Virus record (IMG/VR): IMGVR_UViG_3300028920_000048
Source: a virus
Direction: 5' to 3' (one strand)
DNA: 64,000 nt
Notes under the pieces: model-generated
Told to the model about the DNA's origin: nothing
The model's input: only the letters and a program-made list of their open reading frames with translations
The model's database searches: none
Shown here: positions 44,756 to 62,511 of the stretch, in pieces
Layout of the letters: the number at the start of each line of letters is the position of its first letter
Numbering within the stretch: position 1 is the first letter of the stretch
Position numbers and translations under genes: made by a program

Positions 44756-45522
44756 TCCGGGTGTGATTCTACATCCTCCTTCTCGATTTGATCTATTCTA
44801 CTCTCAACCGTGTCAAGAAGTTCCCTCAATTCCGCAACAACCTTCCCAACAACACCTTCGATCTTCTCAATCTCTTCGCCGGAACAGTACTTCGCCAATC
44901 GAGTGCGCTCCCTGTCATCCCCAAGCGCCCTATGAACCCCGGTCCACAAATCAAAAGCACTACGATAAACTTTTCGCTCCTGACCAAGCTTTGTTAGCCC
45001 ATCCCGACGACACTTCGCTTCCATCGTCATGAAGTCCTCACACAAGCTTCCGTCTGGGTGTTTCGGTCTACCAAGGCTCTTAATCACGTCCTCGGGCACA
45101 TAAGGGCAAACAAAACAATGTCCATCGTGCATGTGCGCCGTACAAGTTAACCCATCTCTGCCCAAAACCTGACACCCGCACCATAAGTCCTTGGCGGTCA
45201 AAGCCGGAAACGGCTGCTTGCGATCATCTTCATTGCTGTTGATAAACCGTAGGACATCGTACCTGCAAAGAGACTTCTCAATCCATTCTATCGCCCGACG
45301 ACGACCCATAAGACAAAGCACGACCAACCCGGTACTTGGCGACTTAACGATCCAAACCGTGGACCGCGCCTGAACAAGCTTGTCATAGACATCCCTGCCA
45401 TCCTTCGGCAACTGCTTGACCAACACCGGCCAATCGTGTTTTACCAACGAAAAAAGAGCATCGGCAAACCGATGCTCCATCTCCTGCTCGATGAACGGTC
45501 TTTTCGCATTCTCGGTCGACAT
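44749..45522 (-). CDS. Hypothetical protein (Cys/His cluster)
   Basis: Long ORF; CGC..CTAH..C..C motif. Confidence 0.55.
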   Translation of the reverse strand: MSTENAKRPFIEQEMEHRFADALFSLVKHDWPVLVKQLPKDGRDVYDKLVQARSTVWIVKSPSTGLVVLCLMGRRRAIEWIEKSLCRYDVLRFINSNEDDRKQPFPALTAKDLWCGCQVLGRDGLTCTAHMHDGHCFVCPYVPEDVIKSLGRPKHPDGSLCEDFMTMEAKCRRDGLTKLGQERKVYRSAFDLWTGVHRALGDDRERTRLAKYCSGEEIEKIEGVVGKVVAELRELLDTVESRIDQIEKEDVESHPDC

Positions 45523-46579: not shown

Positions 46580-46882
46580 CTAATCCCTCTTGGGAACAAG
46601 ATCAAACCGACGTGACTTGAACTCTTCCAGTCGGATTTCCGGGCTGCTGGCGATCTCGAAAAGAGGAAACACGACCTTCTTTGGTTTCGGAATGAACACG
46701 AAATTATACGGATAGACAACCTTGTTCAACTCACGCCACAACCGTCCACACCTACGGACCCAATAATCACGTTCAGCCCGGTCTCTTGGAAGCAACACAC
46801 GAAGCGCCATTCCCAAAACCGACACACGTCTACCAAACCAAAGGATCATGTCTTTCTCTGCTTCAATGAAGTATATGTTCAT
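46580..46882 (-). CDS. Small protein carrying a 31-aa copy of a major capsid protein segment
   Basis: KPKKVVFPLFEIASSPEIRLEEFKSRRFDLV versus MCP KPKRVQFPLFEIASNPEIQLTEIKSRRFDLV; ATGA-coupled to the upstream gene. Confidence 0.75.
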   Translation of the reverse strand: MNIYFIEAEKDMILWFGRRVSVLGMALRVLLPRDRAERDYWVRRCGRLWRELNKVVYPYNFVFIPKPKKVVFPLFEIASSPEIRLEEFKSRRFDLVPKRD

Positions 46883-47376
46883 CTCTCCAAAACGTGCCAC
46901 GTCCAGCACTGCTCTCCGACATGCTCCGAACCTTCAATCCGAAAGCCATGTCTTAGGAACAACCTGATCGAGGCTTGGTTCATCGCCCAAATCCTCGCCA
47001 CGTGTGAACCCGGATACATCGCCAGTGCGAAGCTAAGCAACAAACTCCCGAAACCTTTACCCTGCTTGCCCTTGAAGACCGTAATGCCGGTGATGTAGTT
47101 AAACTTCCTTCGACCGAAAATCGACAGAAAACGCTTCAAAATATCAGCATCGTCCGTCTCCTCCATCGCCCGAAAAGCGGGCATCTTCATCCTCAAAACC
47201 TGAACATTCCCAATCCAGCAGTCGTCAGCCCCGACAAGAAGCCAACTATGAACACCCTCGTTGTATAACCGAAGATAAGAAGCTTCCGAAAACTGAGAAT
47301 GAGGCGGGTAACACTCCTTGTCTTGCTTCGACAAACGAGCCCAGTCGGAATCATTGTCCATCAGTGCGAAACGCAT
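46879..47376 (-). CDS. GNAT-family acetyltransferase
   Basis: ITVFKGKQGKGFGSLLL (motif A) and NQASIRLFLRHGF (motif B). Confidence 0.85.
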   Translation of the reverse strand: MRFALMDNDSDWARLSKQDKECYPPHSQFSEASYLRLYNEGVHSWLLVGADDCWIGNVQVLRMKMPAFRAMEETDDADILKRFLSIFGRRKFNYITGITVFKGKQGKGFGSLLLSFALAMYPGSHVARIWAMNQASIRLFLRHGFRIEGSEHVGEQCWTWHVLER

Positions 47377-47773
47377 CACGCCACCTCTCAGGCTGCATGG
47401 CAACAAATACAGTGTAACTGTCTATGTCCAAAAGACCGCCGCCGTCTGGATGAGGATCATGCACGACCTTGCCGTCACGACCGACGCAAGCGTGCATCAA
47501 ACCCCTCGGACTTGTGCCCGAAACGATGTAATAAGGACCAAACTCGCCATAAAGGCTAATCCAAGGAAACGGCTCTTCACAGCGAAAGTCGTGCAACCCA
47601 ACGCCGCAGTACCTCAAAAGCCACTCATTGCTGTCAGCAAACCACGTGTCGCTCGGGAAATCCACACAGAAGTTCGGCAAGTTACCAAGCGGAACTTCCA
47701 AGATTGAAGCCACGCAAGCTGCAAAACAGTCGCCCTTGCCGTCGCCAAACTTGGTCTGCATTACTGGCTTCAA
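47351..47773 (-). CDS. Papain/C39-like Cys-His peptidase-fold hypothetical protein
   Basis: GDCFAACVASIL...GLMHACV...HDPHP. Confidence 0.5.
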   Translation of the reverse strand: MKPVMQTKFGDGKGDCFAACVASILEVPLGNLPNFCVDFPSDTWFADSNEWLLRYCGVGLHDFRCEEPFPWISLYGEFGPYYIVSGTSPRGLMHACVGRDGKVVHDPHPDGGGLLDIDSYTVFVAMQPERWRDAFRTDGQ

Positions 47774-49167: not shown

Positions 49168-49740
49168 CTACCTTACATTGAAAACGGCAACCCCGTCCTG
49201 AAAGTCCTTCAGGTTGTATTTGGGGCTGTACTTCCCACGAAGGTAGTTCAGAAGGCTCTGCACCCTTTCGTCGTCGGGTGCCTTGAAGAACTGATCTGCC
49301 GGAGAGACGGCAAGCTTGGCGCTTGTCACGAACCGAGAACCCTTGTACTTGCCCAGCTTCAGCGACAGCTTGACCTTGAATCCCTTCTCCTCAAGGTCTT
49401 TGATAAGCATGTTCGCCAGCTTCTCGCCAGCTTGTTTCTCGGTCTTCTCCTTGAACTTCTTGGCTTGCTCGCGGACTTGCTGAAACGCACTCTCGAACAA
49501 CGACGCCCCCGCCGTTCGAGGTGCTCCAATCAAAAGTTTCGATGCTTCAAGCAATCCACGAGCAATGATCAGTTTCTCCACGGTCATTCTCCTATCAACC
49601 TGTCGTGAATGCTCCACGGGGACAAGCCCTGTGGCTTCTAGGTTGTCGCTTTCGCTCCAACCAAAGACTGCATTCCCAGTCTCAATACGTTCCTTGCGGC
49701 ATTCATCCACGAAGACGAGCCCCATAGTTTTCTGCGGCAC
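49168..49740 (-). CDS. Leader-tagged protein (probable start GTG 49581)
   Basis: AGGAG + 7 nt + GTG gives MEKLIIARGLLEASKLLIGAPRTA. Confidence 0.65.
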   Translation of the reverse strand: MPQKTMGLVFVDECRKERIETGNAVFGWSESDNLEATGLVPVEHSRQVDRRMTVEKLIIARGLLEASKLLIGAPRTAGASLFESAFQQVREQAKKFKEKTEKQAGEKLANMLIKDLEEKGFKVKLSLKLGKYKGSRFVTSAKLAVSPADQFFKAPDDERVQSLLNYLRGKYSPKYNLKDFQDGVAVFNVR

Positions 49741-49772
49741 ACATCATAACAGGTCTGGATATAGGAGAAAAA

Positions 49773-49907
49773 TGGCTTGCCCTGTCTGGACTCGAACCAG
49801 AACTTCCGGCATCGTATGCGCCAGCAGAATAGCCCATGCCCTTGGGTTGTAAACCGCCACGCACCCAATGTGGCGTCCGACGTGCTACCACTTACACCAC
49901 AAAGCAA
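49773..49907 (-). ncRNA. tRNA-like RNA (135 nt) with ~58 extra nt in the anticodon arm
   Basis: Intact D arm (GTGT-AAGTGGTA-GCAC), T arm (TCTGG-TTCGAGT-CCAGA), 8-bp acceptor TTGCTTTG/CAGGGCAA, G discriminator and CCA. Confidence 0.75.
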
Positions 49908-49914
49908 ATAGTCT

Positions 49915-49991
49915 TGGCTGGCCCGGCAGGACTCGAACCTGCAACCTCCTGATCCAGAGTCAGGCGTTCCGCCAAATTGAACTACGGACCA
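49915..49991 (-). tRNA. tRNA-Gln(CTG)
   Basis: T1-A72, CCTGA-CT-CTG-GA-TCAGG, GCCA end. Confidence 0.92.
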
Positions 49992-49995
49992 GTAG

Positions 49996-50069
49996 TGGCT
50001 GGCCCGTCAGGACTTGAACCTGAAATAGAAGGTCCAAAACCTCCTGTGTTGCCATTACACTACGAGCCA
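49996..50069 (-). tRNA. tRNA-Gln(TTG)
   Basis: GGAGG-TT-TTG-GA-CCTTC, GCCA end. Confidence 0.92.
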
Positions 50070-50272: not shown

Positions 50273-50346
50273 TTACACTTCTTTCAATTTCCACCACGCT
50301 TCTGCTGCATCTGAACTCACCGAAACAACTTACGTCCGCATGTTTT

Positions 50347-50388
50347 CTATGTGGGACTGTTTGTCAAACAAAAAACAGTCCCACATAG
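50347..50388. repeat. Perfect 16-bp inverted repeat (10-nt loop) between tRNA genes
   Basis: CTATGTGGGACTGTTT / AAACAGTCCCACATAG. Confidence 0.9.
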
Positions 50389-50406
50389 CGAACATCTCTA
50401 TCAAAA

Positions 50407-50817: not shown

Positions 50818-50846
50818 ATTCTACACGATCACGGAGATTCTGTCAA
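50818..50846 (-). promoter_or_regulatory. Sigma70-type promoter
   Basis: TTGACA - 17 bp - TAGAAT. Confidence 0.85.
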
Positions 50847-51061: not shown

Positions 51062-52177
51062 CTATGACTCCTTTCGTTTTCCTGACGGCAAAGCCAAGCC
51101 ACCTCTATGACCAACAACGTAATATTCTCGCATTGGATTAACCACCCAATGATCATCTTGATCTTGTTGAACCCACCCAGCCGATGGAGCCGATGGTACT
51201 TGTCCAGGACGAAGAAGACGCCAAGACCCGCCACCTGCCTTATCACTAACATAAATACTACAACCAGCAGCCCACAACTTCGAGGCCCTCACTCTAAGCA
51301 ACGGACGATCCCCTACTGGCAAATCATGACCACGCTCGTCCGCCCAAAACCTTCCTCCAGGAACCGGACCCTTTACTATTCTCTTACGTCCCTTCGGCAC
51401 ACCCGGATAACGAACAAGCCAAAAATCCCCGGCCATTCTCTCTGTTCCCAAAACCAAAAACTTAGCAACTTTAAGCAACCGTCTCGCCAGTCTGACATTG
51501 CCGTCAAACACTTGACAAGCATCAAAAGCCTGAACAAAACCATACCGAACATCCATACGTTTTTTGAGGGCAACACCTTCTGGAGTCATCATTCCCCACT
51601 GAACATTAGCCTTACCATACTCGTCATAAAGTTTCTTCATCAAGGCTTCGCCAATGCCTATACGACGATAGTTTTTGTTAACGAAGATATAGTTGACATG
51701 AATCTTGCCATCAAACTCGGAGTATTCCACGTAACCAAGCACTTTCCTGTCCGCTGCACTTGTCGCAGTCATGCAAAGATCAGTCTGCCCGTGATGCGAG
51801 CCCGTCACCTCTTCGTTGAACACCGGAATTGGTTGACTTTCAACACTAGGCATGAACTTTTTCAAGGCGTTTACAACAGTTTGATCAGCTTTCCCATGCG
51901 GACGATGCTTCCCAATCATCGGACGACCACCCTTCCACGCTGCAATACCATTTCCGCCCATCCAAAGACCGTCCAACGTTTTCCCGTCCGTATAGAGCTT
52001 CTTACTCTCGGCTCGCTTGCCGCCCAAAAACGCCTCAAGCACCTTCTTATCGCCCTTTGTCAACCGCACAAAAGCTTTCCTATCCTCTAAAAACCTCAGA
52101 ACAAACTTCAATTGCCTCAGCAACGCCATCCAAAGGCTCATCATGTTCAAGAGCCAACCGACGCAAAATCCAATCAC
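51062..52177 (-). CDS. Multidomain protein with a GNAT acetyltransferase domain and an internal leader motif (start probably GTG 52069)
   Basis: VNYIFVNKNYRRIGIGEALM (GNAT motif A); NVRLARRLLKVAKFLVLGT between domains. Confidence 0.75.
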   Translation of the reverse strand: MIGFCVGWLLNMMSLWMALLRQLKFVLRFLEDRKAFVRLTKGDKKVLEAFLGGKRAESKKLYTDGKTLDGLWMGGNGIAAWKGGRPMIGKHRPHGKADQTVVNALKKFMPSVESQPIPVFNEEVTGSHHGQTDLCMTATSAADRKVLGYVEYSEFDGKIHVNYIFVNKNYRRIGIGEALMKKLYDEYGKANVQWGMMTPEGVALKKRMDVRYGFVQAFDACQVFDGNVRLARRLLKVAKFLVLGTERMAGDFWLVRYPGVPKGRKRIVKGPVPGGRFWADERGHDLPVGDRPLLRVRASKLWAAGCSIYVSDKAGGGSWRLLRPGQVPSAPSAGWVQQDQDDHWVVNPMREYYVVGHRGGLALPSGKRKES

Positions 52178-53208: not shown

Positions 53209-55236
53209 TCACGGCTTCTGATACACCAGTATAGGTTCAAGGCGCACAGCCCCATCGAACACCGACTTGTACCTCATAGAGTGCGTGTCAACGTACCTGG
53301 CAACTTGACGCAATACTACCTGAGCATCATCAAGAAGCAAATACTTTCTGTCACCAATAGTCACATCAGCAATGTTCAGCACCAAATAACCACCAGATAC
53401 CAACAATCCAGCAGACTTAGTTATCAAACGCTCAAGAAACTTAACACGCCACTCATCATAAGTCGAATAACGGTTATGGCTTATACAATCATCGTCGCCA
53501 TACCACTCCTTCGTATAGTAAGGCGGAGACGTGAAAACCACATCATATTGTTCATCTCCAATATCCACATCCTCAAAAGCCCCGTACCTTATGTCCACCG
53601 TCTTTCCTGGAATATCCCTACTCAAAATGCACCGCATGTGCTTCAAGCCCTTCACCGTTTCCCCACAAGCATCTACACCTGTATAACTGCCAGCCTGCGA
53701 CACATAGAAGCCAAGCAACCGCCCCCCAAAACCAGCACACGGGTCTAACACGCTACCACCACTCGGACAGTACCTATCCCAAATCGCCTTAGCAATCGCA
53801 GGACGAAAATTGTACACACCACCAAATGACGAACGCATCTCATTTCGCAAAGCTGATGACGACACAGAGTCACGATACTTCAATGTCCTAACAACTGCCT
53901 TCTCAAGTAGCCCAACATTACCAAACACATTCAATGGACTCTTCCCGCCATTTCGATGAGCCCTCCATAACGACGGAAAAAAACACGCACAAACACTAGA
54001 ACCCGCATTGTAACCAGAATCTATTGGCTCATCCAAAATCACATCAGTCCCCCGAAGTCTCGCAACTTCAACTGCCCTGTCCTTTTTCTTCATCTTTGGG
54101 TAAGGAAATCCACGAATCTGCCACATTTTTGTTATCTTAGCAACCAAACACGAATCATCAGCATCAGATGCACCATAACGCCCAATCGAGCGATACACCG
54201 GTACAAGATCAACACAGGCGTTAAACGGAAGGCAAAAACGCAAACTAACGGGAACCTTGTACTGCATGGACTCATGTAGGTGCTCACCTATAACATCAAA
54301 AACTTTTTGCTTGTTATCCAACCACAAAATAACACCACCATCCGAACGCCACTGCACTCTCGTATCAAACGTAAACCGCCGGTTCAGACCATCAGCAATC
54401 AACTCAGCATCATCACGAAACGCATTGATACACAGTGTGAACCGCCCATCAAGACTGCAATCACTCAAATGTCCATCATCCATATACCAAACAGCCAACG
54501 AAAGAGGCGTTACATTGTCAATCATCCCTTCAGGAAATCTTTTCTTTCCACCCTCGGAATAAAACATCTCATAATATGGGACAAACACAGAATGAAAACA
54601 TGTCACAAAACACCTACCATGACAAACTCTATCATCACCAAGCACTTTTTCTGTTGCCCTCACGCGCTTAGAAAACGGTCTCAATATATCGCGTTTCCAT
54701 CTGAGATACAACTCCTGATTACAACTATGACCCTCTTTGAACCTCGCAACATCACCTGCCTTGCTGATATGCACATTCGCATCGCCAAGCAATGACCCAA
54801 CGACAATCTCGTGTTGACCCTGCGTCAGCGAGTTTGGCAAATCCGCTCGAATATGCTGCCCCTTCGACATTGCAACAATACCAAACTCCTTGAGCCGCGT
54901 CCGCACCAACATTCGACTACACCCAAACCGTTTTGCTAATCGACGCTCTCCCAAACCTTGATACAACTTCTCTAATTCACCCTTCGACACAGCATTGATG
55001 TCCTGACGTCCAGATCGTCTTGCCTTAGCAGCTATCCGATCACGAGCCTTTATCGTTACAATCCCATACTTCCTCCTGTAATAGCCAACAGCAACATCAG
55101 TCAACCCAAATCGCCCAGCAATCTCAGCATCGGATAACAACAACTCCTCGTACAGCTTTCTCAACACATCCTCCGCCAATCCGTGGTCCTTGTGTGTCCT
55201 CTTATCAGACATGGCATCTCCAATCAACTTAATCAT
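53209..55236 (-). CDS. Fusion of HTH repeats, LAGLIDADG endonuclease and amino-(N4/N6) DNA methyltransferase
   Basis: IVVGSLLGDANV and LAVWYMDDG (LAGLIDADG_2); VLDPCAGFGGRL (motif I) and VFTSPPY (motif IV). Confidence 0.8.
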   Translation of the reverse strand: MIKLIGDAMSDKRTHKDHGLAEDVLRKLYEELLLSDAEIAGRFGLTDVAVGYYRRKYGIVTIKARDRIAAKARRSGRQDINAVSKGELEKLYQGLGERRLAKRFGCSRMLVRTRLKEFGIVAMSKGQHIRADLPNSLTQGQHEIVVGSLLGDANVHISKAGDVARFKEGHSCNQELYLRWKRDILRPFSKRVRATEKVLGDDRVCHGRCFVTCFHSVFVPYYEMFYSEGGKKRFPEGMIDNVTPLSLAVWYMDDGHLSDCSLDGRFTLCINAFRDDAELIADGLNRRFTFDTRVQWRSDGGVILWLDNKQKVFDVIGEHLHESMQYKVPVSLRFCLPFNACVDLVPVYRSIGRYGASDADDSCLVAKITKMWQIRGFPYPKMKKKDRAVEVARLRGTDVILDEPIDSGYNAGSSVCACFFPSLWRAHRNGGKSPLNVFGNVGLLEKAVVRTLKYRDSVSSSALRNEMRSSFGGVYNFRPAIAKAIWDRYCPSGGSVLDPCAGFGGRLLGFYVSQAGSYTGVDACGETVKGLKHMRCILSRDIPGKTVDIRYGAFEDVDIGDEQYDVVFTSPPYYTKEWYGDDDCISHNRYSTYDEWRVKFLERLITKSAGLLVSGGYLVLNIADVTIGDRKYLLLDDAQVVLRQVARYVDTHSMRYKSVFDGAVRLEPILVYQKP

Positions 55237-59121: not shown

Positions 59122-62100
59122 TCAATCTAACGCACTCTGCACTATACGTTCTGCGATATCCGAAAGATGTTGACGGCGCAACTCTTCTCTGGCAAGCCGA
59201 ACTGCCATCATCCCCCCGCAATCCGCCACACGAAGCCCCCGAACCCTACTCGCATATCTCAAGCCACCACCCGTATATTCTCCAGCCGAAACAAGAACCG
59301 GCTGTGAATCTTCCCCAATAGAAACCAAGTGATTGATGACTGCACCGCGAAACGCCGGACTTTCAACCCATGAAGCTTCAATAAATCTCACAGATGTTGG
59401 ATCGCCAACTCGCTTCCCCGTGACGGGATCAATATAAGACCGGCCACAAAGCTCGGCAACAATCCGTCTGACGCCATTCTCGTCCTTGAAATACTCCCCG
59501 AGCTGATGTCTGACATGCTCGCACTCATCATTGTCGTCCAGAGACTCGTGCCCACACCTTGAGCATTGCAAAATCTCTGCAACGCAGTTATGCACAGCCA
59601 CGTCCCCAGCAATAAACGAGTGATCGCCAGCATCATTGACAACATGAAGATTGTTTACAAAATAACACCCACCCACGGGATCATTCGCTTTAACTCTGAC
59701 AAGCATATATCCATCAAAACACGAAATGCGTTCCTTCGACACTGGTTGTTGTCTAAATTTTCGTGTATAGCCTTCAAGTCGAATCGCCCAACTCTTACGT
59801 GTATTTACATGCCAGAAAGGCTTCCTGTCCTGCATTTTGTATGGACCCGAAACTGAAGCAGGCACACCAACGAAACGTAACATCGTCAAAACCTGTTGCG
59901 ACAAAAAAGGACTGGTCGACACCGTAGTAAAACGACTATCATCAACACGACAATGACCATCCCCATCAATGTAAGCTCCAATAATCTCACACAACGATTC
60001 ATCATCAAGAAGCAACACCTCCGAAGAAAACCGCTTCATATCACAGTGCTCACCACACATACTTTGCAACCAGACAGCCAAATCGCTATTATGCACTACA
60101 ACTCTTGTGCTCTTGCCACATTCACGATTTCTGGACTGTACGTACACTTTCTCTAGTTCAATACCTTCAGCATCAACACAAGACTTTACATCATCAACCA
60201 AATAACCTTCATCCTGCGAAAACGTAAACTCCACAGCCCGTGGCAAACTATGCTCATCTTTTTGAAGGTTCCCATCAGCCGCATACAATCCAAGCAGCCT
60301 ACAACGACTTTTCGCCCACACAGTACGCTCTTGCTCGGGACGACCAAGTGGAACAGCTACAAAATCTCCGACTCTAAGCTCTTCCGCCGCAACCCACTCA
60401 AATACCGGATGTTGCTCTTGCAAAACCGCAACAGATTGCACCTTGGGGTTTGTGTTGCAATGAGTCTGATAACAACTACTTGAACACCACTCTCTCATAA
60501 GTGTATCCAATGATCCCGCTCGTCCTCTTGGTAGTTCCTTACCACAACCCTTGCACTTGTCATAACCTCTCAAAGTCCAATACGGGTGCTCTTTAGTCAC
60601 ATAAGTATCTGGACGACCCACCAATGACAGCCTTCGCAATTCTCCATCCGAACACAAACGCCTACGCTTTGATTCAACCGTACCGACACCGCCAGTATGC
60701 GTAACCACGCTCGCCCCAATAGGGACATCTTCCACACACATCTGTGTGCCATCAGCAAGTCTCACAAGCGTACCATCAAGATGGCAGCCCATCGAAAGGG
60801 TGCTCAACTCCCCACTGGCAATGCGACGACACAAACCAATGTGAATACGATCTGTTTGGACAAGGATATCACAATACCAGACATTAGCCTTGCCGCCTTT
60901 CTTCCCCTCATAAACCACCGGACGAAGCACTGCGTCGATCACTCGACCCTTGCTCAATTCCGGGATTTGGACATGTTCATAGTAATTGTAAGCTCCGATG
61001 AAGGAGCGAAACGTCGACAACAATACCGGATTACTCCATGCGTTTGCATTGCTGTTGACAAGTTCATCACACGGAGACTTGATGTAGTAACCGTTGTCCT
61101 CGGTCTCTACAGAGCAAACAATCGTACAGTTATGCGTCGCCACACCTTCCACGACATAACTTTCATCTTCTTCAACCGAGAGATTATGAATATAACCTTC
61201 ATACTGGGAAACACCCTTTTTGTTGACCCTCGTAACGACTCGGCCAGCAACTTTCCGTCTACGACACACTTTGTCAGCGACAACAATCGTGGACTTGCCC
61301 ACCCAATTTTCAAAACCAAACTCCTCGGAGTTTTTAGCAATGAAAGACGGCATAATCTTCAACGTGTATTCTGTCCTCTTCCTATGCTTTGGTCTCCGAT
61401 ACAAATTCGACTCTATACCACAATTAGACGCAACGATTTGAGCCTGTTCCGCCAACGTCTGTGATACTGTCACGCCGCTATCGCCCCGAAACCAACATGC
61501 CAACAACTCTCTCTGTTCGGCCAAGTCCCAATCAAAAACTTCTCTGGCGATCCTTTTCCCATAACACTTAGAGCCTCCAAGAGCCAACAACTTATCTGCA
61601 AGCACCTTGTCCTTGACATCAATAACAACGCAATTAGAGTCGGGTCGCCTATCCGCAATGTGTGGTTTAGCACCGGTCAAACGCTCAAGAATACTGCACA
61701 CCTCAGTAACATATTCTTCTTCGTCCCCGGAAAACGCAAAGAAAATGCGATTAAATACACCATAATCACTCGCCTGCCTGCAAGACGTTTGCGAAACCCA
61801 ACCCTCGGCAAGATAATAGCCAAGCAATCTCGCCATGTCACTTCCAACATTGACCCCACAACTTTTGTAAATACCCAAAGCCACGTAATCGCCTACATCA
61901 AGGCAACATGAGTCCCGCCACTCAAAGGAATCCAAATCATGCCGAAACTGATCAAGTCTCTGTGCATAATCTGGACTATGCGGTGAACCATAAACCCTGT
62001 TCTGATGTCCAAGAACAAACGATCTTTTCCTCTTACAGTTTACGGACGCCCCGCAACCACAAACACAAGTCTTATGCACTTTGACTGCATAAAACGGGTG

Positions 62101-62511
62101 CTCTGGTGTAACAGAAACCGTATTTGGGACACCAGAGAACTTAAAATCAAACACGATACCGGAGTACGGTCGTTTCGAGATGGCTCGAACACGCCGTGAA
62201 GCTCCGGTATGAGAAATTACAAAATCGCCAACCTTTACTTCCTCAATGGCTTTATACGTCCCATCAGCCATAAGAACCCGCATTCCGGGAACAAAACAGT
62301 GTGTATAGAGATGGTCCCTGACCTTGATCTTGCCCCAATCAAGGTCAATGTTGCGCTGCGAAGCAACACGCTTGCCCTTAGAGCGAGAAATCAAACTCCA
62401 CTCCCGAGCCGGATCGTACAAGATATTGGCTACGGGGAGATTCAAAGAAAAAGTTCTGGACTTCCTTGCCGCCGCCAATTGACACGCACCACTTATGCAA
62501 CGTCTGGACAC
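59122..62511 (-). CDS. Prohead maturation protease with two inteins (339-aa extein)
   Basis: Extein motifs YYEH, LSMG-C, CxxC..C.H and FIEASWVESPAF; upstream of scaffold and MCP. Confidence 0.85.
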   Translation of the reverse strand: MSRRCISGACQLAAARKSRTFSLNLPVANILYDPAREWSLISRSKGKRVASQRNIDLDWGKIKVRDHLYTHCFVPGMRVLMADGTYKAIEEVKVGDFVISHTGASRRVRAISKRPYSGIVFDFKFSGVPNTVSVTPEHPFYAVKVHKTCVCGCGASVNCKRKRSFVLGHQNRVYGSPHSPDYAQRLDQFRHDLDSFEWRDSCCLDVGDYVALGIYKSCGVNVGSDMARLLGYYLAEGWVSQTSCRQASDYGVFNRIFFAFSGDEEEYVTEVCSILERLTGAKPHIADRRPDSNCVVIDVKDKVLADKLLALGGSKCYGKRIAREVFDWDLAEQRELLACWFRGDSGVTVSQTLAEQAQIVASNCGIESNLYRRPKHRKRTEYTLKIMPSFIAKNSEEFGFENWVGKSTIVVADKVCRRRKVAGRVVTRVNKKGVSQYEGYIHNLSVEEDESYVVEGVATHNCTIVCSVETEDNGYYIKSPCDELVNSNANAWSNPVLLSTFRSFIGAYNYYEHVQIPELSKGRVIDAVLRPVVYEGKKGGKANVWYCDILVQTDRIHIGLCRRIASGELSTLSMGCHLDGTLVRLADGTQMCVEDVPIGASVVTHTGGVGTVESKRRRLCSDGELRRLSLVGRPDTYVTKEHPYWTLRGYDKCKGCGKELPRGRAGSLDTLMREWCSSSCYQTHCNTNPKVQSVAVLQEQHPVFEWVAAEELRVGDFVAVPLGRPEQERTVWAKSRCRLLGLYAADGNLQKDEHSLPRAVEFTFSQDEGYLVDDVKSCVDAEGIELEKVYVQSRNRECGKSTRVVVHNSDLAVWLQSMCGEHCDMKRFSSEVLLLDDESLCEIIGAYIDGDGHCRVDDSRFTTVSTSPFLSQQVLTMLRFVGVPASVSGPYKMQDRKPFWHVNTRKSWAIRLEGYTRKFRQQPVSKERISCFDGYMLVRVKANDPVGGCYFVNNLHVVNDAGDHSFIAGDVAVHNCVAEILQCSRCGHESLDDNDECEHVRHQLGEYFKDENGVRRIVAELCGRSYIDPVTGKRVGDPTSVRFIEASWVESPAFRGAVINHLVSIGEDSQPVLVSAGEYTGGGLRYASRVRGLRVADCGGMMAVRLAREELRRQHLSDIAERIVQSALD
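59587..60786 (-). mobile_element. Intein 2 (400 aa) with LAGLIDADG endonuclease
   Basis: Begins CHLDGT after SMG and ends AVHN before C; LLGLYAADG and IIGAYIDGDG. Confidence 0.9.
61129..62298 (-). mobile_element. Intein 1 (390 aa) with LAGLIDADG endonuclease
   Basis: Begins CFVPG after YTH and ends ATHN before C; LLGYYLAEG and LLACWFRGDS. Confidence 0.9.

What the first reader, a model, noticed from the sequence alone, without database searches (positions are those of the whole stretch)
49773..49907. tRNA-like RNA with an 8-bp acceptor stem and a predicted pseudoknot in place of the anticodon arm
Seen: within the tRNA array, a 135-nt gene has normal D and T arms and G-CCA, but an 8-bp acceptor (8/5, 13 bp in total) and 80 nt between the D and T arms instead of about 23. 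The insert has a CGCCAC/GTGGCG hairpin whose loop TTGGGT is complementary to ACCCAA 7 nt downstream (H-type pseudoknot), and a distal hairpin with loop AT-ACG-AT. Removing 58 nt would give a 5-bp TCGGC/GCCGG stem with an ACG loop, but I found no bulge-helix-bulge and the insert is too short for a group I intron. Inference: a non-decoding tRNA mimic (nuclease or synthetase decoy, or a miniature tmRNA-like ribosome ligand), or a tRNA with an unrecognised small intron.
Basis: partly seen in the sequence, partly recalled or inferred. Interest (0 to 1): 0.78.

Follow-up and report, generated by a model that had tools for sequence, protein, structure and literature searches.

The report
Phage tRNA-shaped RNA carrying conserved insert
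A jumbo phage from marine sediment encodes, inside its tRNA gene array, a 135-base RNA that keeps the upper half of a tRNA but carries a conserved 58-base insert where the anticodon arm should be; it most likely no longer reads codons, and it joins a little-studied group of odd phage "tRNAs" whose function is unknown.

Summary
On the minus strand (49907..49773) lies a 135-nt gene, 7 nt after tRNA-Gln(CUG). It has an 8-bp acceptor stem, normal D and T arms, G-CCA, and 80 nt between the D and T arms.

It is not an assembly artefact. Contigs from two other runs cover it in two overlapping pieces that include both insert junctions. That related copy keeps every helix of the tRNA body, including a U-A to C-G double change in the eighth acceptor pair. 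It has no listed change in 50 assessable nt of the insert, against 12 changes in the other 74 sites (p about 0.001).

The predicted pseudoknot exists as sequence complementarity and is rarer than chance (p about 0.003). The relative breaks both of its stems, and an equally stable rod-like fold tolerates those changes. The structure is unresolved.

The tRNA-Arg(ACG)-with-intron reading is weak:
- A20 is missing, although 26 of 27 tRNA-Arg genes in related arrays have it.
- The body resembles tRNA-Gly/Gln.
- There is no bulge-helix-bulge and no Rfam ribozyme or intron match.

Best reading: a non-decoding RNA on a tRNA scaffold, processed like a tRNA. The closest precedents are T4 species 1 RNA and the "enigmatic introns" of Lak phage tRNAs. 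No RNA data exist. This scan has reported similar things on other phage DNA.

The parts
49773..49907 (-). Whole 135-nt tRNA-shaped gene. It starts 7 nt after the CCA of tRNA-Gln(CUG) and ends 33 nt before the next ORF.
   Evidence: Sequence. ARAGORN with introns allowed. Covered by contigs of three runs.
49900..49907 (-). Acceptor stem, 5' strand (RNA 1-8).
   Evidence: Pairs with RNA 124-131. In the relative U1>C matches A131>G, which is compensatory if the two short contigs are one lineage.
49777..49784 (-). Acceptor stem, 3' strand (RNA 124-131).
   Evidence: In the relative, G126>A turns U.G into U-A and A131>G pairs with C1.
49882..49897 (-). D arm (RNA 11-26): 4-bp stem, loop AAGUGGUA with G18 G19, and U where tRNA-Arg has A20.
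   Evidence: Sequence. In the relative the U.G pair of the stem becomes C-G. A20 comparison.
49877..49880 (-). Helix I, 5' strand (RNA 28-31, UCGG): what remains of the anticodon stem.
   Evidence: Pairs with RNA 99-102. In the relative U28>C turns U.G into C-G.
49810..49876 (-). Insert or payload (RNA 32-98) in place of the inner anticodon stem and loop.
   Evidence: Removing RNA 32-89 leaves 37 of 44 central nt identical to a tRNA-Gly(GCC) of a related phage.
49855..49875 (-).
   Evidence: Sequence. Its 3' strand is split by a 25-nt insertion in the relative.
49842..49847 (-). ACCCAA (RNA 61-66), complementary to loop UUGGGU (RNA 40-45): the proposed pseudoknot helix S2.
   Evidence: Sequence. 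p = 0.02 alone and 0.0026 together with S1. Weakened by G43>A in the relative.
49804..49858 (-). Conserved core (RNA 50-104). No change is listed in the relative in the 50 of these positions (RNA 50-74 and 86-104, with 44-49 beyond the core) that lie away from contig ends; RNA 75-85 could not be assessed.
   Evidence: 0 of 50 against 12 of 74 changed sites, p = 0.0014.
49806..49824 (-). Alternative local hairpin CUGGCG / CAUACGA / UGCCGG (RNA 84-102), which shows UACG in a 7-nt loop.
   Evidence: Sequence. The cloverleaf with S1 and this hairpin evaluates to -34.5 kcal/mol, against -43.0 for the rod.
49785..49801 (-). T arm (RNA 107-123): 5-bp stem, loop UUCGAGU.
   Evidence: Sequence. In the relative A123>G gives U.G, so the pair is kept.
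49773..49776 (-). Discriminator G132 and encoded CCA.
   Evidence: Sequence. All but one of the neighbouring tRNA genes also encode CCA; the exception is tRNA-Pro(GGG). The discriminator is A in the relative.
50818..50846 (-). Promoter-like site TTGACA-17-TAGAAT upstream of the tRNA array.
   Evidence: Consensus scan, 11 of 12 matches. Function is inferred.
45455..45478 (-). Terminator-like 10-bp hairpin followed by a T run, downstream of the last tRNA of the array.
   Evidence: Consensus scan. Function is inferred.

Best explanation
This is a tRNA-derived RNA that no longer decodes. A gene of the tRNA-Gly(GCC)/Gln type in the phage's tRNA array acquired a roughly 58-nt insert on the 5' side of its anticodon loop, and its acceptor stem became 8 bp long.

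Proposed mechanism:
- The RNA is transcribed with the array from the promoter at 50846.
- RNase P and the 3' trimming enzymes cut it out because its upper half (acceptor/T stack, D/T elbow, G-CCA) still looks like a tRNA.
- It accumulates as a stable 135-nt species.
- The tRNA part serves as a processing and stability scaffold. This is the layout used in the engineered 'tRNA scaffold' method, which I recall from memory.
- The working part is the insert, whose sequence, not only its pairing, is conserved. It would bind an unknown protein or RNA partner.

Shown: the anatomy, selection on the scaffold helices, stronger sequence conservation of the insert, and loss of the tRNA-Gly and tRNA-Arg identity elements.

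Inferred: transcription, processing, stability, and that the insert binds something.
For: - The gene sits 7 nt after a tRNA in a tightly spaced array and ends in G-CCA like its neighbours.
- In the related copy none of the 12 changes in the tRNA body breaks a pair. The changes are one double change (U1-A131 to C1-G131), four one-sided changes that keep pairs (positions 14, 28, 123, 126), and the rest in loops or the discriminator.
- No change is listed in 50 assessable insert positions, against 12 in 74 others (p = 0.0014).
- A20, the ArgRS determinant, is U here but A in 26 of 27 tRNA-Arg genes of related arrays.
- The GlyRS elements known from the literature (G1-C72, C2-G71, G3-C70, U73, C36) are absent from the sequence.
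- Rfam's tRNA model does not match, even at E <= 10.
- Related phages carry other tRNA-shaped genes whose anticodon loop is replaced by 44 or 55 nt, and a four-paralogue family with different acceptor stems but a shared inner core.
- T4 species 1 RNA is a precedent: a 139-nt stable RNA with a T arm, lying in a tRNA cluster.
Against: - There is no RNA evidence at all: no RNA run was listed.
- Only one related lineage was found. It was pieced together from two 218- and 251-nt low-depth contigs from different runs, and differences near contig ends are not listed.
- No partner or target was found. The window holds no antisense match of 10 nt or more on the mRNA strand.
- Removing 58 nt restores a tidy 5-bp stem and a 7-nt loop with U33, ACG and A37, and no other tRNA-Arg lies in the window. 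A spliced decoder therefore stays possible.
- The fold of the insert is unresolved.
Confidence: 0.5

Rival explanations
1. It is a working tRNA-Arg(ACG) gene split by a short 58-nt intron of the 'enigmatic' kind reported in Lak megaphage tRNAs. An unknown bacterial or phage pathway removes the insert and joins the halves.
For: - ARAGORN calls tRNA-Arg(ACG) with a 58-nt intron in the anticodon loop.
- Removing RNA 32-89 gives a perfect 5-bp stem and the loop AUACGAU, and leaves 37 of 44 central nt identical to a normal tRNA of a related phage.
- No other tRNA-Arg lies in the window.
- Lak phage tRNA inserts are also near-identical across genomes (PMC6784885).
- High conservation of the insert with diverged exons is what a mobile intron would show.
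Against: - A20 is missing, although 26 of 27 tRNA-Arg genes in related arrays keep it.
- The 8-bp acceptor stem is unlike any tRNA-Arg listed there.
- The body is closest to tRNA-Gly/Gln, not Arg.
- There is no bulge-helix-bulge at either junction.
- No group I or II intron or self-cleaving ribozyme matches at E <= 10.
- The splice point is ambiguous by 2 nt.
- A canonical-looking arm after some deletion is expected by chance in about a third of cases (my estimate).
- The relative carries a 25-nt indel inside the insert.
- No insert-free allele was found.
Confidence: 0.2
2. One reading: a tRNA mimic whose anticodon arm is replaced by an H-type pseudoknot (S1 33-38/48-53, S2 40-45/61-66) plus a distal hairpin. 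It would act as a decoy for a nuclease or synthetase, or as a ribosome ligand.
For: - S1 plus the loop complement occurs in only 0.26% of shuffles.
- By my rough nearest-neighbour sum, this fold is about as stable as the rod (for the nested parts).
- The local hairpin shows UACG in a 7-nt loop, reminiscent of the tRNA-Arg(ACG) anticodon loop.
Against: - The relative has G43>A in the middle of S2 and a 25-nt insertion inside the 3' strand of S1, while ACCCAA is unchanged.
- tmRNA and Y RNA models do not match.
- The shuffle figure was computed after the motif had been noticed.
Confidence: 0.12
3. It is a decaying pseudo-tRNA: a duplicate tRNA gene disrupted by an insertion, with no function.
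For: - Canonical identity elements are lost.
- Default tRNA detectors do not recognise it.
- Jumbo-phage arrays of this family hold many odd tRNA-like genes.
- The fold energies are ordinary.
Against: - All seven helix changes in the relative keep pairing, one of them by a double change.
- The insert core is unchanged where about 5 changes would be expected (p = 0.0014).
- D-loop GG, the T loop and G/A-CCA are all intact.
Confidence: 0.12

Closest known systems
'Enigmatic' short introns in tRNA genes of Lak megaphages (Devoto et al. 2019, PMC6784885)
   Same: Phage tRNA genes in large arrays are interrupted in the anticodon region by short inserts that match no Rfam family. The inserts are nearly identical between related genomes, and no mechanism is known.
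   Different: The Lak cases were typed with a tRNA scanner as known isotypes, and some have insert-free alleles. Here the isotype signals are lost (no A20, 8-bp acceptor stem) and no insert-free allele was found. The host group and the insert sequence are unrelated.
Phage T4 species 1 and species 2 stable RNAs (rnaC, rnaD)
   Same: They are 139- and 119-nt stable RNAs encoded directly after tRNA genes in the phage tRNA cluster. rnaC ends in a T arm plus an acceptor-like helix. Their function is unknown.
   Different: There is no sequence similarity. As annotated, T4 rnaC has no D arm of tRNA type and no encoded CCA. The present RNA is a complete cloverleaf apart from the anticodon arm.
Engineered tRNA-scaffold RNAs (the Ponchon and Dardel method; recalled from memory, not checked here)
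   Same: A foreign RNA is placed in the anticodon arm of a tRNA, so that the cell processes and stabilises it like a tRNA.
   Different: That is a laboratory design. Nothing here shows that the natural RNA is stable or that its insert is the active part.
Bacterial tRNA-Sec and allo-tRNAs with long acceptor stems (8/5, 8/4, 9/3)
   Same: The acceptor stem has 8 bp. With the 5-bp T stem this gives a 13-bp stack, as in bacterial tRNA-Sec, and the discriminator is G.
   Different: There is no 6-bp D stem, no long variable arm (only 4 nt), no UCA anticodon, and no 7-nt anticodon loop in the favoured fold.
Group I introns in bacterial tRNA anticodon loops (tRNA-Leu UAA, tRNA-Ile CAU of Azoarcus, tRNA-Arg CCU)
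   Same: An insert lies in the anticodon loop region of a bacterial-type tRNA gene.
   Different: 58 nt is far below the roughly 200-nt minimum, and no Intron_gpI match appears at E <= 10.

Membership tests
Canonical tRNA (Rfam RF00005) | Matches the covariance model at or above 29 bits. | tested here: not met
   No RF00005 match over 49773-49907 at the gathering score or at E <= 10. Insert-bearing tRNAs of relatives do match, at 51.8 and 43 bits.
Canonical tRNA (Rfam RF00005) | Acceptor, D and T arms and an NCCA end. | tested here: met
   Read from the sequence and drawn by ARAGORN. The pairs are kept in the relative.
Canonical tRNA (Rfam RF00005) | A 5-bp anticodon stem with a 7-nt loop in the primary transcript. 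| tested here: not met
   80 nt lie between the D and T stems. The only 7-nt loop on offer is CAUACGA, which has A where U33 should be.
tRNA-Arg(ACG) | A20 in the D loop (major ArgRS determinant in bacteria, from the literature). | tested here: not met
   U follows G18 G19 here. 26 of 27 tRNA-Arg genes in related arrays have A there.
tRNA-Arg(ACG) | C35 and G36 in a 7-nt loop, with A or G at position 73. | tested here: inconclusive
   These are present only after a hypothetical removal of 58 nt. No RNA data exist.
Archaeal/eukaryal-type tRNA intron | Bulge-helix-bulge motif at the two splice sites. | tested here: not met
   No 3-nt bulge / 4-bp helix / 3-nt bulge arrangement places the bulges at RNA 31-34 and 89-92. 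Such motifs elsewhere in the RNA are as frequent in shuffles. A near-consensus bacterial-type promoter and a tmRNA in a related phage point to a bacterial host.
Group I/II introns and small self-cleaving ribozymes | Match to the Rfam models (Intron_gpI, group II, hammerhead, twister, pistol, hatchet, HDV-like). | tested here: not met
   None is listed at E <= 10 over 49650-50000.
tmRNA | tRNA-Ala-like end with G3.U70, a tag reading frame, and a match to RF00023. | tested here: not met
   The third pair is G-C. There is no tmRNA call from ARAGORN or Rfam. The tag reading frame was not examined.
Bacterial tRNA-Sec (8/5) | 8-bp acceptor stem plus 5-bp T stem. | tested here: met
   Sequence. The eighth pair covaries.
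Bacterial tRNA-Sec (8/5) | 6-bp D stem with a 4-nt loop, a long variable arm, and a UCA anticodon. | tested here: not met
   The D stem has 4 bp with an 8-nt loop, the variable region is 4 nt, and there is no UCA loop.
Phage tRNA genes with 'enigmatic' short inserts (Lak type) | A phage tRNA-array gene with a short unclassifiable insert in the anticodon region, conserved between relatives. | tested here: met
   the description is in PMC6784885. The class is defined by description only.
Phage tRNA genes with 'enigmatic' short inserts (Lak type) | The insert is removed from the RNA. | not testable with these tools
   No RNA run holds the stretch. The passages of the Lak paper that I read gave no RNA evidence for removal either.

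The most novel reading that the evidence does not exclude
Jumbo phages of this family may use tRNA genes as natural scaffolds for small functional RNAs. In this one the sequence-conserved insert would switch between a rod and a pseudoknot-plus-hairpin fold. The second fold exposes a UACG loop that copies the tRNA-Arg(ACG) anticodon loop. That loop would let the RNA soak up a host enzyme aimed at that tRNA, such as an anticodon nuclease of a defence system or the A34 deaminase TadA. This would be an RNA-based counter-defence carried in the tRNA array.
Probability: 0.12. Interest if true: 0.8.

Novelty: new variant of a known kind. Interest (0 to 1): 0.5.

Why it matters
Phage tRNA arrays are usually read as codon-supply or anti-defence spare parts, and standard tools skip genes like this one. 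Here there is evidence of selection, though from a single relative, that such a gene is kept, with the strongest constraint on the insert rather than on the tRNA body.

Similar objects occur in related jumbo phages, in Lak megaphages and in T4. Together they suggest that tRNA-shaped carrier RNAs are a recurrent and unexplained part of phage biology. If the inserts are removed instead, bacteria or phages would have a short-intron tRNA splicing route that nobody has described. Either outcome can be tested by expressing a few hundred bases in a laboratory bacterium.

Tried and rejected
Homologue searches that found nothing useful:
- blastn against GenBank phages.
- Four exact patterns from the insert in IMG/VR: searches found nothing, and one search gave three chance hits in coding DNA.
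- One gapped pattern in JGI metagenomes, two chance hits in coding DNA.
- Two patterns in GTDB genomes, none and then 11 chance hits.
- BLAST of the element against 84 loci and 37 whole related virus records, which gave only T-arm matches.
- Neighbouring proteins as anchors. These gave relatives without tRNA arrays, or nothing.

Own genome: none is held.

RNA evidence: no RNA run was listed.

Ideas considered and dropped:
- Known ribozyme or intron.
- Bulge-helix-bulge.
- An insert shaped like a tRNA top half, as in an earlier finding of this scan: I saw no T arm in the insert.
- A repeated mobile element: no second copy of the insert in the window or the loci.
- An antisense RNA against a gene in the window: no complement of 10 nt or more on the mRNA strand.
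- A CsrA-type GGA loop or a CRISPR-repeat mimic: only loose resemblance by eye, not tested.
- Homology with the four-paralogue tRNA-like family of G037: only a short CNUACRA resemblance; no model was built.
- Searching the predicted-protein collection with a translation across the element: not done, because the gene caller placed no ORF there on the window's own contig.

Full report
**What is there**

The window is a piece of a 101-kb phage contig from a marine-sediment metagenome. All genes run on the minus strand.

Between 50568 and 45590 lies an array of 12 standard tRNA genes with small ORFs in between. A near-consensus promoter-like site, TTGACA-17-TAGAAT, lies upstream at 50846-50818. 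A terminator-like hairpin lies downstream at 45478-45455.

The major capsid protein has about 150 relatives in IMG/VR at up to 90% identity. The complete ones are 300-390 kb, and arrays in this family hold up to 56 tRNA genes. One relative carries a tmRNA. Together with the promoter type, this points to bacterial hosts.

The finding is the 135 nt from 49907 down to 49773, which begins 7 nt after tRNA-Gln(CUG).

**Check of the observation**

RNA position i corresponds to window position 49908 - i.
- Acceptor stem: RNA 1-8 with 124-131, 8 bp.
- D arm: RNA 11-26.
- T arm: RNA 107-123, 5-bp stem.
- G132, then CCA.
- 80 nt between the D and T stems.
- Hairpin CGCCAC/GUGGCG (33-38 with 48-53), whose loop UUGGGU is complementary to ACCCAA at 61-66.

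Removing RNA 32-89 gives UCGGC/GCCGG with the loop AUACGAU. ARAGORN reports a tRNA-Arg(ACG) with a 58-nt intron only when introns are allowed and the threshold is lowered. That call is offset by 2 nt and leaves an A.G mismatch. Default ARAGORN and Rfam see nothing, even at E <= 10.

The stretch is not an assembly artefact. The probable source run covers it without differences. Two runs from another study hold short contigs of a related copy, one covering RNA 1-104 and the other RNA 56-135.

**What the related copy shows**

I treat the two short contigs as one lineage. This is an assumption: same study, different runs. The relative then differs at 12 positions of the tRNA body.
- None of the 12 changes breaks a pair.
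- U1-A131 becomes C1-G131, which supports the unusual eighth acceptor pair.
- Positions 14, 28 and 126 turn U.G pairs into Watson-Crick pairs.
- Position 123 turns U-A into U.G.
- The other changes lie in the D loop, the variable loop, the T loop and the discriminator.

No change is listed in RNA 44-74 or 86-104, the 50 insert-side positions that lie far enough from contig ends to be reported. Zero of 50 against 12 of 74 gives p = 0.0014.

The insert does differ in two ways: G43>A, and a 25-nt insertion between RNA 49 and 50. The insertion looks like two extra copies of a roughly 12-nt unit, ACAUUGA....

The RNA is therefore under selection. Its tRNA body is constrained in shape and most of its insert is constrained in sequence. 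This argues against a dead pseudogene.

**Fold of the insert**

Two incompatible folds are possible.
It is statistically unusual: 0.26% of shuffles show a perfect 6-bp hairpin with a 6-nt loop-to-downstream complement. That figure was computed after the motif had been noticed.
- With the cloverleaf helices enforced, the minimum-energy fold is an irregular rod of about 25 bp that extends the anticodon stem. It scores -43.0 kcal/mol, against -34.5 for S1 plus a local hairpin without the pseudoknot term. My rough stacking sum puts the pseudoknotted fold within a few kcal/mol of the rod.

The rod's energy is ordinary for this base composition (z = -0.56).

The relative discriminates between the two. 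G43>A puts an A-C mismatch in the middle of S2, and the 25-nt insertion splits the 3' strand of S1. Both changes fall at unpaired positions of the rod (G43 and the G50 bulge). I therefore favour the rod, but one relative cannot settle it.

**Is it a tRNA-Arg with an intron?**

The evidence is mostly against this reading.
- In 26 of 27 tRNA-Arg genes from the related arrays, the base after G18 G19 is A20, the main ArgRS determinant. Here it is U.
- Those genes have 7-bp acceptor stems.
- The body is closest to tRNA-Gly(GCC) and tRNA-Gln genes of related phages.
- After removing RNA 32-89, 37 of 44 central nt match a tRNA-Gly(GCC) of record G028, with a compensatory A-U/G-C difference in the anticodon stem.
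- In record G005 a tRNA-Gly(GCC) follows the tRNA-Gln pair at the position the element occupies here.

The gene therefore looks like a Gly/Gln-type tRNA that took up an insert next to its anticodon loop and then lost the GlyRS elements, rather than an arginine tRNA.

Other points against a spliced decoder:
- No bulge-helix-bulge lies at the junctions.
- No intron or ribozyme family matches.
- I estimate that about a third of random inserts would allow some deletion that leaves a 5-bp stem and a 7-nt loop with U33 and a purine at position 37. The tidy 'spliced' arm is therefore weak evidence.

Splicing by an unknown route cannot be excluded, because no RNA data exist.

**Context in related phages and in the literature**

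The insert has no detectable homologue in the collections searched (see Tried and rejected). The type of object recurs, however.
- ARAGORN with introns allowed, and my own scan for T-arm/acceptor units longer than 98 nt, found oversized tRNA-shaped genes in several related arrays.
- Rfam's tRNA model itself matches two of them, with 44 and 55 nt in place of the anticodon loop: L107 13060-13169 at 51.8 bits and L108 2487-2597 at 43 bits.
- Record G037 has four tandem 128-139-nt paralogues. Their acceptor stems differ but they share an inner core with covariation, and none matches an Rfam family.

Devoto et al. 2019 reported 'enigmatic' introns in Lak megaphage tRNAs that are identical across cohorts and unclassifiable (PMC6784885). 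T4 encodes the 139-nt species 1 RNA, which has a T arm, directly after its tRNA-Arg. Its function is still unknown.

Earlier notes of this scan describe comparable cases in other phages. I treat those notes as leads only.

**Most likely mechanism**

The RNA is made as part of the array transcript and cut out by the tRNA-processing enzymes, because its upper half is a good tRNA mimic. It persists as a 135-nt species whose active part is the conserved insert. What the insert binds is unknown, and the window holds no antisense target.

One speculative lead: the alternative local hairpin (RNA 84-102) shows UACG in a 7-nt loop, like the tRNA-Arg(ACG) anticodon loop. The RNA might therefore attract an enzyme that acts on that tRNA.

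My odds are about 0.5 for the scaffold reading, 0.2 for a spliced tRNA, 0.12 for the pseudoknot mimic as proposed and 0.12 for a pseudogene.

**Verdict**

This is a real, selected and unannotated tRNA-derived RNA. It is a further and structurally distinct example (8/5 stack, unrelated insert) of the poorly understood insert-bearing tRNA-shaped genes in phage tRNA arrays. It is moderately interesting on its own. It would be more so as part of a survey of the class, or if RNA work showed either splicing or a bound partner.

Noticed in passing
L115:15303-16407 (IMG/VR record G037, a 393-kb phage): Four tandem 128-139-nt tRNA-like paralogues. Each has a paired acceptor stem of different sequence, a T arm, and a shared inner core (ATCGCACCTCG ... 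CCCGCGGTTCTTACAAGC) with compensatory changes. None matches an Rfam family.
   Followed up: partly
L107:13060-13169 and L108:2487-2597 (records G026 and G028): tRNA genes of related phages that pass Rfam's tRNA threshold (51.8 and 43 bits) but carry 44 and 55 nt where the anticodon loop should be.
   Followed up: partly
L110:8759-9050 (record G034): ARAGORN calls a tRNA-Arg(CCU) with a 194-nt insert. The size would fit a small group I intron, but no such match appeared among the Rfam gathering-score matches listed (150 of 158).
   Followed up: no
L108:248-318 (record G028): An HDV-like ribozyme (RF02682, 48.9 bits) lies directly beside a tRNA gene, like the 'theta' ribozymes reported next to phage tRNAs (recalled from memory).
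   Followed up: no
L105:12990-13334 (record G021): A phage-encoded tmRNA (RF00023, 141 bits) inside the tRNA array of a related jumbo phage. It supports a bacterial host for the family.
   Followed up: no
window 53209-55236 and 59122-62511 (minus strand): Two large genes carry LAGLIDADG and Hint domains: a DNA methyltransferase-like ORF, and a 1129-aa ORF that appears to contain an intein.
   Followed up: no
window 46879-47406 and 51062-52069 (minus strand): Two GNAT acetyltransferase-like genes, one inside and one just upstream of the tRNA array. GNAT enzymes that acetylate charged tRNAs are known toxins, so the placement may mean something.
   Followed up: no
window 49603-49743: The related copy lacks these 141 nt (47 codons) at the start of the ORF downstream of the element. 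The annotated N-terminus of that ORF is therefore dispensable or mis-called.
   Followed up: no
window 50273-50406: A 134-nt gap between tRNA-Pro(CGG) and tRNA-Pro(UGG), in an otherwise tightly packed stretch of the array. It has no tRNA call and was not examined.
   Followed up: no
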